From assembly GCF_054482525.1 (NCBI RefSeq), contig NZ_CM137006.1: a stretch of 64,000 bases of DNA. One strand, 5' to 3'. The translations under genes were made by a program, and so were the position numbers. Position 1 is the stretch's first letter, and each line of letters begins with the position of its first letter. This document shows positions 2,577 through 5,226 of this stretch, one piece after another. The notes below the pieces were generated by a model, which saw only the letters and a list, made by a program, of their open reading frames with translations, ran no database searches and had not been told where the DNA came from.

Positions 2577-3335
2577 ATGAGCCTGACCCTCACACTTACT
2601 GGCACTGGCGGCGCACAGGGCGTTCCGGCATGGGGCTGCGAGTGCGTGGCCTGCGCCAGAGCGCGGCGCTCACCGCAGTATCGCCGCCAGCCATGCAGCG
2701 GCGTCGTGAAGTTTAACGACGCGATCACCCTGATCGACGCCGGGCTGCACGATCTCGCCGATCGCTGGTCGCCCGGATCGTTCCAGCAGTTTTTGCTGAC
2801 GCACTACCATATGGATCACGTGCAGGGGCTGTTTCCGCTGCGCTGGGGTGTGGGCGATTCGATCCCGATCTACGGCCCGCCGGATGAACAGGGCTGCGAC
2901 GATCTGTTTAAACATCCGGGCCTGCTTGATTTCAGCCACACGATGGAACCGTTTGTGGTGTTTGATTTACAGGGGTTACAGGTCACGCCCCTGCCGCTCA
3001 ACCACTCAAAACTGACCTTCGGTTATCTGCTGGAAACGGCACACAGCCGGGTGGCGTGGCTGTCTGACACCGCTGGCTTGCCGGAAAAAACGCTGAAATT
3101 TTTACGCAATAATCAGCCGCAGGTAATGGTGATTGATTGCAGCCACCCGCCGCGCGAGGATGCACCGCGTAATCACTGTGATTTAAATACCGTGCTTGCG
3201 CTGAATCAGGTTATCCGCTCGCCACGGGTGATTCTGACCCATATCAGCCACCAGTTTGATGCGTGGCTGATGGAAAACGCACTGCCGTCGGGGTTTGAGG
3301 CGGGGTTTGATGGGATGGAGATTGGGGTGGCGTGA
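2577..3335 (+). CDS. phnP: PhnP, metallo-beta-lactamase-fold phosphodiesterase
   Basis: 252-aa ORF with HxHxDH-type motif (THYHMDH); last gene of phn operon. Confidence 0.9.
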
Positions 3336-3350
3336 TGGGAGGGAATGTGC

Positions 3351-3477
3351 GCGCTGGCCCCCTCACCCTAACCCTCTCCCCAGAGGGGCGAGGGGACCGA
3401 TTGTGCTCGATATTGAATATTGCGCTGGTTTTCTCCCTCGCCCCATTGGGGAGAGGGCCGGGGTGAGGGGCGATGCC
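3351..3477. repeat. Pair of GC-rich boxC-like imperfect palindromic repeats in inverted orientation
   Basis: CCCCTCACCCTAACCCTCTCCCCAGAGGGGCGAGGGGA and its near reverse complement TCCCTCGCCCCATTGGGGAGAGGGCCGGGGTGAGGGG, separated by about 35 bp, in the phnP-yjdP intergenic region. Confidence 0.5.
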
Positions 3478-3493
3478 TGCTCCATACCCAACA

Positions 3494-3823
3494 TCAACGC
3501 CCATACTCATCTTCCATTCTCCGCTCTTCATCTTCTAGCTGCCGACGCTCCTGATCCAGCTGGCGCTGGCGATCGTCCAGCTGCCTGCGGCGATCTTCAA
3601 ACTGGCGGCGGCGATCGTCATATTGTCTGCGCCGATCGTCGTTCACTTCACGCTGCCAGCCGTCGTCGCGCGAATCTTCATAGTCTCGCCCACGGTCAGG
3701 GTTATAAGCGTCGTTAATCGCCTGCTGAATATTGCCAATGGTGTCGTCGATAATATCGGCCTGGGCCGGAACGGTGGACAGCGTGAGCAGGGTGAATAAA
3801 AGAAATAGCGGAAAGCGTTTCAT
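3494..3823 (-). CDS. yjdP: YjdP, small secreted protein with charged RRRQ/DD repeats
   Basis: 109-aa ORF with N-terminal signal peptide (MKRFPLFLLFTLLTLSTVPAQA) and repeated DRRRQ-type motifs. Confidence 0.8.
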   Translation of the reverse strand: MKRFPLFLLFTLLTLSTVPAQADIIDDTIGNIQQAINDAYNPDRGRDYEDSRDDGWQREVNDDRRRQYDDRRRQFEDRRRQLDDRQRQLDQERRQLEDEERRMEDEYGR

Positions 3824-3891
3824 TAGCCAACCTCAAAAAGAAACTCTATCCACATTAGTCATTACTCATCCATGCAAGTAGTGGATGAATC

Positions 3892-4092
3892 TCAATTTCT
3901 CCGCTGCTCTATTGCCGTAATCGCCTCCACGCGTTGTTGATGACGACCGCCTTCGTACTGCGCGCCCAGCCACGCATCCACAATCATTTTTGCCAGTTCG
4001 AGGCCAACCACTCGTGAACCAAAAGCCAGTGCAACTTCACTGGCGTAATGCGGATAATCAGTACGCTCTGACGACCTGGTTTCTTTATCAAT
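3892..4092 (-). pseudogene. rpiB: rpiB remnant (ribose-5-phosphate isomerase B), 3' portion only, with internal deletion
   Basis: Translation contains SSERTDYPHYAS...FGSRVVGLELAKMIVDAWLGAQYEGGRHQQRVEAITAIEQRRN, matching the RpiB C-terminus as recalled; the catalytic-Cys GTG-loop segment and the N-terminus are absent; upstream part of the ORF is not RpiB-like. Confidence 0.6.
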
Positions 4093-4241
4093 CCCCTCAC
4101 TCATTGACCATGAATAAAAGGCTGGCACAGCAACGCAGAATCCTGCGGTGCCAGCGACATGACCGCCCATTGCTCCGGTACGTTTTTTAATAAAAAACAC
4201 CGGTTGCATTGATTAATTGTGCTCAGGGTAATGACTCCAAC

Positions 4242-4745
4242 TTATTGATAGTGTTTTATGTTCAGATAATGCCCGATGACTTTGTCATGCAGCTCCACCG
4301 ATTTTGAGAACGACAGCGACTTCCGTCCCAGCCGTGCCAGGTGCTGCCTCAGATTCAGGTTATGCCGCTCAATTCGCTGCGTATATCGCTTGCTGATTAC
4401 GTGCAGCTTTCCCTTCAGGCGGGATTCATACAGCGGCCAGCCATCCGTCATCCATATCACCACGTCAAAGGGTGACAGCAGGCTCATAAGACGCCCCAGC
4501 GTCGCCATAGTGCGTTCACCGAATACGTGCGCAACAACCGTCTTCCGGAGACTGTCATACGCGTAAAACAGCCAGCGCTGGCGCGATTTAGCCCCGACAT
4601 AGCCCCACTGTTCGTCCATTTCCGCGCAGACGATGACGTCACTGCCCGGCTGTATGCGCGAGGTTACCGACTGCGGCCTGAGTTTTTTAAGTGACGTAAA
4701 ATCGTGTTGAGGCCAACGCCCATAATGCGGGCAGTTGCCCGGCAT
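4242..4745 (-). CDS. insB: IS1 InsB (transposase catalytic part, normally expressed as InsAB' by -1 frameshift)
   Basis: 167-aa ORF overlapping insA 3' end in the -1 frame; canonical IS1 organisation. Confidence 0.9.
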
Positions 4746-4939
4746 CCAACGCCATTCATGGCCATATCAATGATTTTCTGGTGCGTACCGGGTTGAGAAG
4801 CGGTGTAAGTGAACTGCAGTTGCCATGTTTTACGGCAGTGAGAGCAGAGATAGCGCTGATGTCCGGCGGTGCTTTTGCCGTTACGCACCACCCCGTCAGT
4901 AGCTGAACAGGAGGGACAGCTGATAGAAACAGAAGCCAC
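4664..4939 (-). CDS. insA: IS1 InsA
   Basis: 91-aa [46 protein letters not shown], zinc-finger plus HTH, canonical IS1 InsA. Confidence 0.92.
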
Positions 4940-5226
4940 TGGAGCACCTCAAAAACACCATCATACACTAAATCAGTAAGTTGGCAGCATCACCTGTGCT
5001 CAGTATTTGCCGAAGTACAATATATATAATAAATATATAAAACACCTCATATTATTTACAGAGATAATAAATTCGCGTACTTTTCCCTCTTCAGCACAAA
5101 TGCCTAATAAAGTGGCGCGTTCAGCTCACACTTCTACTTATTAAAGTCGCAATTTCCCAATTATGATAACGCCAGCTTTAAATGACGTATTTTGCATGGA
5201 TTACATATTTACGACATAAATGATAA

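What the first reader, a model, noticed from the sequence alone, without database searches (positions are those of the whole stretch)
3351..3477. Compound GC-rich palindrome (boxC-like pair) between phnP and yjdP
Two roughly 40-bp units built from GGGGAGAGGG / GGGGCGAGGG / GGGGTGAGGG blocks and their complements lie in inverted orientation about 35 bp apart, able to form a large cruciform or alternative RNA hairpins. The position between convergent phnP and yjdP suggests a terminator or mRNA-stabilising role. Its G-runs also explain the spurious overlapping ORFs called here.
Basis: partly seen in the sequence, partly recalled or inferred. Interest (0 to 1): 0.2.

Follow-up and report, generated by a model that had tools for sequence, protein, structure and literature searches.

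The report
Known BoxC repeat pair, deletion-prone
The GC-rich palindrome between phnP and yjdP is an intact inverted pair of the long-known E. coli BoxC (PIT/TMECO) repeat. It is an ordinary, already catalogued element that most strains have partly or wholly deleted, and it does not look like a terminator.

Summary
Two 36-nt units lie at 3359-3394 (- strand) and 3435-3470 (+ strand). They are 86% complementary, 40 nt apart, and fold into one long hairpin (RNA -98 kcal/mol, z = -7).

Both units fit the published TMECO consensus exactly. This element was earlier called BoxC, or PIT element. The left unit is identical to MG1655 TMECO no. 22, and Kaplan 2016 lists the same K-12 copy as quadruplex motif HPGQ 51. 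So the "boxC-like pair" label is right and the element is already known.

The terminator idea is not supported:
- No U-tract follows either side of the hairpin.
- The literature reports no terminator or promoter activity for single elements.
- Roughly 30% of a small sample of E. coli genomes have no element at this site.

The locus is a deletion series. The intact pair occurs in at most 73 of 5,426 genomes, and about 58% carry a 12-bp deletion. The other alleles I fetched lack 63, 82 or 124 bp. Each of these junctions sits in a 3-9 nt direct repeat made of the G-blocks. One fetched strain carries the pair flipped.

Best reading: a dispensable dispersed repeat whose main effect is structure-driven instability. 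Interest is low.

The parts
3359..3394 (-). BoxC/TMECO unit, type A with one mismatched stem pair (second loop TTA). On the - strand it reads CCCTCGCCCCTCTGGGGAGAGGGTTAGGGTGAGGGG.
   Evidence: Exact fit to the TMECO pattern. Identical to MG1655 TMECO no. 22 in Table 1 of PMC4666352 and to the MG1655 locus L012.
3435..3470 (+). BoxC/TMECO unit, type B with one mismatched stem pair (second loop CCG). It reads CCCTCGCCCCATTGGGGAGAGGGCCGGGGTGAGGGG.
   Evidence: Exact fit to the pattern. It is the inverted partner of the left unit (I1). In K-12-like alleles this unit has lost one 12-nt G-block.
3395..3434 (.). 40-nt spacer. It holds the conserved 'head' of the A unit (GACCGATTGTGCTC, 3395-3408), an AT-rich mini-palindrome (ATATTGAATAT, 3410-3420) and the 'head' of the B unit (GGTTTTCT, 3427-3434).
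   Evidence: The same head sequences flank A and B units at five other MG1655 pairs. The T-rich head of the B type was also noted by Kaplan 2016.
3343..3358 (.). Tail on the G-rich side of the A unit (GAATGTGCGCGCTGGC). It resembles the CAGCGCGCACRTTC tail seen at other BoxC copies.
   Evidence: By-eye comparison with the MG1655 hrpB-mrcB pair and the YZMc3-1 allele. No alignment statistic was computed.
3383..3391 (+). Left copy of the 9-nt direct repeat GAGGGGCGA. This is the junction of the 82-bp deletion allele (O157:H7 type).
   Evidence: Repeat family D8. Deletion mapped.
3465..3473 (+). Right copy of the 9-nt direct repeat GAGGGGCGA.
3448..3470 (+). G-quadruplex-type run (four G-tracts), GGGGAGAGGGCCGGGGTGAGGGG. 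Its first 12 nt (3448-3459) are the block deleted in about 58% of E. coli genomes.
   Evidence: Pattern search and deletion mapping. Frequency.
3358..3381 (-). G-quadruplex-type run on the - strand, GGGGAGAGGGTTAGGGTGAGGGGG. It corresponds to the K-12 motif HPGQ 51 (class HPG1).
   Evidence: Kaplan 2016 table lists it between yjdP and phnP at 4314309.
2577..3335 (+). phnP, last gene of the phn operon. It ends 23 nt before the left unit.
3494..3823 (-). yjdP (DDRRRQL repeat protein), convergent with phnP. It ends 23 nt after the right unit.
   Evidence: NCBIfam NF041443, E = 1.2e-43.

Best explanation
This is an intact inverted doublet of the dispersed enterobacterial repeat known as BoxC, also published as the PIT element, TMECO, or quadruplex motifs HPG1/HPG2. 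It has one type A unit and one type B unit facing away from each other, sitting in the 158-bp gap between the convergent genes phnP and yjdP.

It encodes nothing and shows no sign of a dedicated function at this locus.

Shown here:
- The two arms can pair into a roughly 45-bp hairpin in single-stranded DNA or in RNA.
- Each G-rich half carries tandem, near-identical 12-nt G-blocks.
- The population carries a nested series of deletions whose ends lie in those blocks.

Inferred: when the DNA is single-stranded during replication, the hairpin (and the triplex or quadruplex folds shown in vitro by others) brings the short direct repeats together. Slippage then removes one block, half of the pair, or the whole pair. 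The window therefore holds the rare, near-undecayed form of a decaying repeat.

Transcripts of phn and yjdP that read into it would gain a very stable 3' hairpin. I regard any effect of that on RNA ends as a side effect, not the reason the element is there.
For: Identity:
- Both units fit the TMECO consensus exactly.
- The left unit is identical to catalogued MG1655 copy no. 22.
- The same K-12 copy is listed by Kaplan 2016.
- The A+B inverted pairing rule of MG1655 holds here.

Family size: the 36-nt unit matches 93,015 places in 5,425 of 5,426 E. coli genomes, median 19 per genome. The 12 listed matches have no annotated feature under them.

Structure.

Instability and dispensability:
- At most 73 genomes (1.3%) have the intact right unit in this context. 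3,230 of 5,426 match that stretch at all; of the 29 further rows listed in the spread sample, 19 span both sides and all are 12 bp short, and the rest match only part of the query.
- In a 60-row evenly spaced sample the alleles were: 33 with the 12-bp deletion, 1 with 63 bp, 5 with 82 bp, 7 with 124 bp, 1 with a 42-bp gap, 11 with a 27-bp gap, and 1 without the locus.
- Four alleles each derive from the window allele by one deletion, with microhomology GGGG, GAGGG, GAGGGGCGA or GGG at the junction.
- Strains with the 63- and 124-bp deletions have a YjdP protein identical to that of PCN033, whose locus is 100% identical to the window over the 651-bp query. This points to recent loss.
- Fold stability falls stepwise, from -98 to -63, -56 and -26 kcal/mol, then to only a weak local hairpin (-12) or none in the two shortest alleles folded.

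This matches the TMECO-linked variability and the 'palindrome effect' reported in PMC4666352.
Against: - Holder 2015 could not show triplex formation in vivo by DMS footprinting, so the structure that drives slippage is inferred.
- The direction of change for the 27-bp allele is not settled. It could be an older state without the element.
- The tight conservation of the 36-nt motif, including in very distant bacteria, is hard to explain by neutral decay alone. It hints at an unknown sequence-specific process.
- No expression data were available for this locus.
Confidence: 0.72

Rival explanations
1. The doublet acts as a two-way transcription terminator or 3'-end protector for the convergent phn operon and yjdP. 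The long RNA hairpin would stop RNA polymerase or block 3'-to-5' exonucleases, as REP elements do.
For: It lies between convergent genes, 23 nt from each stop codon. A very stable hairpin forms on both strands. Kaplan 2016 notes that these motifs tend to lie nearer the 3' ends of ORFs and floats a terminator role.
Against: No U-tract follows the stem on either strand, and the scan finds no terminator at the element. Single PIT elements had no terminator activity, as cited in PMC4666352. About 30% of sampled genomes have only a 27- or 34-bp gap with little or no hairpin, and a further 8% keep only a stump. No 3' end is listed for yjdP or phnP in the Adams 2021 supplements. This is weak evidence, because phn is silent without phosphate starvation.
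Confidence: 0.15
2. The doublet is a non-autonomous mobile element of the REPIN or MITE type. Its two inverted units would be the ends recognised by an unidentified enzyme, which would explain how the family spread and stays uniform.
For: The units always pair as A+B inverted repeats with conserved head and tail sequences. The same doublet sits at this site in the opposite orientation in strain YZMc3-1. Copy number per genome ranges from 1 to 33. Near-identical motifs occur in Mitsuaria (over 140 units in about 1 Mb of fetched DNA), a Methylomirabilota MAG and a Contendobacter MAG.
Against: No target-site duplication is visible at the ends. No clean empty site exists: the short alleles keep remnants or differ in the flanks. 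Holder 2015 found no link to transposons, phages or plasmids. The one wide-spaced pair I checked in Mitsuaria encloses an ORF that looks like an ordinary membrane protein (no family search was run), not a transposase. Most copies stay at fixed loci across strains.
Confidence: 0.12
3. The units are regulatory switches that toggle between G-quadruplex, hairpin and duplex forms to control neighbouring genes, as proposed by Kaplan 2016.
For: Both units hold four G-tracts that fit the quadruplex pattern. The K-12 copy is listed as HPGQ 51. In vitro CD data in that paper show ion-dependent switching.
Against: The flanking genes of the family share no function. This copy lies downstream of both neighbours, not in a promoter, and no promoter-like site is found in 3000-4000. 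The commonest allele has lost one of the four G-tracts of the right unit.
Confidence: 0.05

Closest known systems
BoxC / PIT element / TMECO (Bergler 1992; Hoyne and Maher 2000, 2002; Holder et al. 2015, PMC4666352)
   Same: Both units fit the consensus CCCTCNCCC-N3-6-GGGNGAGGG-N3-GGGNGAGGG exactly. They are type A (TTA) and type B (CCG), paired in inverted orientation and intergenic. The left unit is letter-for-letter copy no. 22 of the MG1655 catalogue at the same locus.
   Different: MG1655 has only one strict unit here, because its right unit lost a 12-nt block. The window keeps both units. Four of the five MG1655 pairs have their G-rich ends facing inward with 16-29 nt spacers. This pair, like the lldD-trmL pair, faces outward with a longer spacer (40 nt).
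[quoted passage not shown] 2016, PMC5100583)
   Same: It is the same sequences seen through a quadruplex search. The K-12 copy at yjdP/phnP is their HPGQ 51, and they also noted pairing on opposite strands and the T-rich head of the second class.
   Different: Their regulatory-switch reading has no support at this locus, which lies downstream of both genes.
REP/BIME elements and REPIN doublets
   Same: These are also short GC-rich palindromic repeats between genes, often as inverted doublets that fold into long hairpins. They are known to protect mRNA 3' ends and to promote rearrangements.
   Different: The sequence family is different. No associated RAYT-type transposase is known or was found here. 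The extra G-block gives triplex and quadruplex potential that REPs lack.
Intrinsic (Rho-independent) terminator
   Same: A GC-rich hairpin just after a stop codon.
   Different: The stem is about four times longer than usual and no U-tract follows it.

Membership tests
BoxC / PIT / TMECO | Sequence fits 5'-CCCTCNCCC N3-6 GGGNGAGGG N3 GGGNGAGGG-3' | tested here: met
   The pattern search hits 3360-3394 (-) and 3435-3469 (+) and nothing else in the window. Consensus taken from PMC4666352.
BoxC / PIT / TMECO | Second loop is TTA (type A) or CCG (type B), and pairs combine one A with one B on opposite strands | tested here: met
   Left unit TTA on the - strand, right unit CCG on the + strand. The rule is stated and seen at the five MG1655 pairs.
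BoxC / PIT / TMECO | Intergenic position | tested here: met
   Lies between the phnP stop (3335) and the yjdP stop (3494). RefSeq annotates no feature there.
BoxC / PIT / TMECO | Dispersed, multi-copy within the species | tested here: met
   93,015 places in 5,425 of 5,426 E. coli genomes, median 19 per genome, range 1-33.
BoxC / PIT / TMECO | Same copy catalogued at the orthologous locus | tested here: met
   TMECO no. 22 at 4,314,285-4,314,320 lies between yjdP and phnP in NC_000913.3. It is also HPGQ 51.
BoxC / PIT / TMECO | Match to the original 51-59 bp BoxC consensus of Bergler 1992 and the first GenBank record | not tested
   The original consensus was not available. PMC4666352 states that TMECO equals BoxC. 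The lengths fit roughly: the 36-nt core plus the conserved head and tail comes close to 51-59 bp.
BoxC / PIT / TMECO | Folds into an intrastrand triplex in vitro | not testable with these tools
   CD and NMR evidence exists for type A and B oligonucleotides of the same sequence classes.
Intrinsic terminator | GC-rich stem-loop | tested here: met
Intrinsic terminator | Run of T/U directly after the stem | tested here: not met
   After 3470 the sequence reads GCGATGCCTGCTCC. On the other strand, after 3359, it reads GGCCAGCGCGCACATT. The scan reports no site at the element.
Intrinsic terminator | Mapped RNA 3' end at the site | tested here: inconclusive
   No yjdP or phnP entry in the held supplements of PMC7815308. 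Two other papers had no supplements held.
MITE | Terminal inverted repeats plus a target-site duplication | tested here: not met
   Inverted ends are present, but the flanks (...GCTGGC / CGATGCC...) share no direct repeat.
REPIN / RAYT system | A cognate transposase gene flanked by the repeats | tested here: inconclusive
   Only a spot check was made. Between units 400-4000 nt apart in the fetched loci, I read the ORFs of two gaps by eye, without a family search. One looks like a LysE-type transporter and the other like a LysR-type regulator plus an aldehyde dehydrogenase.
G-quadruplex motif (HPG1/HPG2) | Four G-tracts of at least 3 with loops of 1-7 | tested here: met
   3448-3470 (+) and 3358-3381 (-).

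The most novel reading that the evidence does not exclude
BoxC doublets may be kept uniform and spread, and flipped in place, by an unknown sequence-specific process such as a dedicated recombinase or a single-strand transposase, as RAYTs do for REPINs. This would explain three things: the letter-perfect 36-nt core in E. coli, the near-identical motif in Burkholderiales and a Methylomirabilota MAG, and the same doublet in both orientations at phnP-yjdP.
Probability: 0.1. Interest if true: 0.55.

Novelty: already known. Interest (0 to 1): 0.1.

Why it matters
It matters little as a discovery. The element, its pairing rule, its structures and its link to local instability are all published, and this very copy is listed in two catalogues.

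There are two modest gains:
- The phnP-yjdP gap is a clean natural example of stepwise, microhomology-bounded decay of a BoxC pair across 5,426 genomes. The window holds the rare intact form, so it would be a convenient locus for measuring deletion rates.
- Annotators should not call the ORFs that overlap it.

Tried and rejected
- **Rfam, permissive threshold.** The only hits are microRNA-precursor models, all far below their gathering scores. They reflect a long hairpin and nothing more.
- **Promoter and terminator scan.** Nothing at the element.
- **3'-end mapping data.** The Adams 2021 supplements have no entry for yjdP or phnP. Two other papers had no supplements held.
- **Coding potential.** The five overlapping ORFs have no Pfam family and are not annotated in RefSeq.
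- **Transposase hunt.** Widely spaced unit pairs in Mitsuaria enclose ORFs that look like ordinary genes, judged by eye.
- **Target-site duplication or clean empty site at this locus.** Not found. The short alleles are better read as deletions.
- **Chance palindrome.** Rejected.

Full report
**What is there**

Window 3359-3394 reads CCCCTCACCCTAACCCTCTCCCCAGAGGGGCGAGGG. Window 3435-3470 reads CCCTCGCCCCATTGGGGAGAGGGCCGGGGTGAGGGG. The repeat finder reports them as inverted arms of 36 nt, 86% complementary, with 40 nt between (I1).

The G-block pattern occurs twice in the 64 kb window, only here, against 0.01 expected. As RNA the region folds into one long hairpin on either strand (-98.3 kcal/mol, z = -7.0; -92.7, z = -6.3). 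As single-stranded DNA it does the same (-44.8, z = -7.0). No shuffled control did as well.

The neighbours are phnP (2577-3335, +) and yjdP (3494-3823, -), which are convergent. This rests on the RefSeq annotation of PCN033, whose locus is identical over the 651-bp query, and on NCBIfam.

**Identity**

Holder et al. 2015 (PMC4666352) study a motif "earlier described as BoxC", rediscovered by Maher's group as the PIT element, and named TMECO by Holder. Its consensus is 5'-CCCTCNCCC N3-6 GGGNGAGGG N3 GGGNGAGGG-3'.

- Both units fit this pattern exactly, and nothing else in the window does.
- The left unit, read on the - strand, is identical to their MG1655 copy no. 22 at 4,314,285-4,314,320. 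That position lies between yjdP and phnP in NC_000913.3.
- Kaplan et al. 2016 (PMC5100583) list the same K-12 copy as putative quadruplex HPGQ 51, 101 bp from yjdP and 24 bp from phnP.
- The left unit has the TTA loop (type A) and the right unit the CCG loop (type B). Holder reports that all five MG1655 pairs combine one A with one B on opposite strands. I confirmed this on the fetched MG1655 loci.
- The 36-nt unit matches 93,015 places in 5,425 of 5,426 complete E. coli genomes, median 19 per genome, range 1-33. The 12 listed matches have no annotated feature under them.

The "boxC-like pair" label is correct, and the element is already known.

**Finer anatomy**

Comparison with the five MG1655 pairs shows short conserved sequences outside the 36-nt core:
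- GACCGAT-G-GC-C next to the hairpin end of A units.
- GGTTTTCT next to the hairpin end of B units. Kaplan also noted this.
- A CAGCGCGCACRTTC-like tail on the G-rich side.

The window's 40-nt spacer is the A head, then an AT-rich mini-palindrome, then the B head. The left flank (3343-3358) is a tail. With head and tail the unit comes close to the 51-59 bp given for BoxC in the first E. coli GenBank record.

Four MG1655 pairs have the G-rich ends facing inward with 16-29 nt spacers. This pair and the lldD-trmL pair face outward.

**The locus across E. coli**

The gap between phnP and yjdP comes in at least eight lengths. Frequencies come from a 60-row evenly spaced sample of 5,431 records.

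| Gap length | Change from window allele | Rows of 60 |
|---|---|---|
| 158 bp | none (window, PCN033) | 1 (the top hit) |
| 146 bp | 12-bp deletion (K-12-like) | 33 |
| 143 bp | doublet flipped (YZMc3-1) | 0 here; 1 of 40 |
| 95 bp | 63-bp deletion | 1 |
| 76 bp | 82-bp deletion (O157:H7 type) | 5 |
| 42 bp | different parent allele | 1 |
| 34 bp | 124-bp deletion | 7 |
| 27 bp | element absent | 11 |
| none | locus absent | 1 |

A probe across the right unit and its flank gives firmer numbers. At most 73 records (1.3% of genomes) match at 99% or more. 3,230 genomes match at all. Of the 29 further rows listed, 19 span both sides of the block and all are 12 bp short; the other 10 match only part of the query.

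Four alleles derive from the window allele by a single deletion. Each has junction microhomology inside the repeat blocks:
- 12 bp, GGGG (3448-3459).
- 63 bp, GAGGG.
- 82 bp, GAGGGGCGA (the direct repeat at 3383 and 3465).
- 124 bp, GGG.

The strains with the 63- and 124-bp deletions encode the same YjdP protein as PCN033, which points to recent loss. The 63-bp deletion fuses the two units into one shorter perfect-looking hairpin. This is the "palindrome effect" Holder described.

Predicted RNA stability falls stepwise: -98, -63, -56 and -26 kcal/mol. The 34-bp allele keeps only a weak local hairpin (-12), and the 27-bp allele has none.

Strain YZMc3-1 carries the same doublet in the opposite orientation: B on the left, A on the right, with a shorter centre. 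Its element aligns with the window's element better when reverse-complemented. Inversion between the arms would explain it, but a separate history in a divergent lineage is not excluded.

**Function**

A terminator reading fails on the defining feature. There is no T run after the stem on either strand, and the scan finds nothing at the element.
- Holder cites Hoyne and Maher as finding no promoter or terminator activity and no in vivo effect for single PIT elements.
- About 30% of the small genome sample have a 27- or 34-bp gap with little or no structure, so the element is dispensable.
- I found no 3'-end data for these genes.

The paired form has not been tested by anyone. A REP-like protective effect on the two 3' ends cannot be excluded, and I rate it a possible side effect.

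Rfam gives only sub-threshold microRNA-hairpin hits.

**Best explanation and rivals**

I read the element as a dispensable dispersed repeat. Its main consequence is structure-driven replication slippage, and the window holds the rare intact state (confidence about 0.7).

The sequence, the structures' potential and the deletion junctions are shown here. The slippage mechanism is inferred, and Holder's in vivo footprinting did not detect the triplex.

Rivals:
- A terminator or 3' protector (0.15).
- A REPIN- or MITE-like mobile element (0.12).
- A quadruplex regulatory switch (0.05).

The mobile reading draws some support from the motif's presence in distant bacteria. All inverted pairs there face outward, and the units share a conserved TCTTCGGGC tail. 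It also found the motif in a Methylomirabilota MAG and a Contendobacter MAG.

Against it, I found no target duplication, no clean empty site and no associated transposase.

**Verdict**

The terminator idea is not supported. The element is already known, and interest is low.

Noticed in passing
window 4227-4994 (- strand) and 3892-4209 (- strand): An IS1 copy sits next to a 105-aa remnant of rpiB. The IS1 shows InsA and InsB ORFs, NCBIfam transpos_IS1, and an exact terminal repeat at 4972-4994. Only the last ~45 residues of the rpiB remnant match the rpiB models. The otherwise identical PCN033 locus has the same short rpiB but no IS1 there.
   Followed up: partly
window 3530-3640, inside yjdP: yjdP contains direct repeats with a 21-nt period (families D1 and D3, spacings 21 and 42). 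They encode its DDRRRQL protein repeats.
   Followed up: no
L002 361-455 (E. coli YZMc3-1, NZ_CP123244.1): The same BoxC doublet lies at the phnP-yjdP site in the opposite orientation, with B on the left and A on the right, and with a spacer shorter by about 20 nt. It could be an inversion between the arms or a separate history in a divergent lineage.
   Followed up: partly
L021-L127 (Mitsuaria chitosanitabida), L013-L020 (Methylomirabilota MAG), L028-L030 (Contendobacter MAG): The same 36-nt motif is very abundant in a betaproteobacterium, with over 140 units in the fetched loci. Every inverted pair there faces outward, and the units share the tail TCTTCGGGC. Many appear to have a TGAGC-like stop-codon context 10-15 nt upstream. 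The motif also occurs in a MAG of another phylum.
   Followed up: partly
L134 (E. coli SH21PTE31, NZ_CP097181.1): In the strain with the 42-bp allele, yjdP is annotated as a pseudogene with an internal stop.
   Followed up: no
E. coli plasmids (collection-wide): 364 of the 93,015 matches to the 36-nt unit lie on plasmids, although Holder 2015 reported no association with plasmids. The one listed plasmid match is partial (61% of the query), so these may be weak hits.
   Followed up: no
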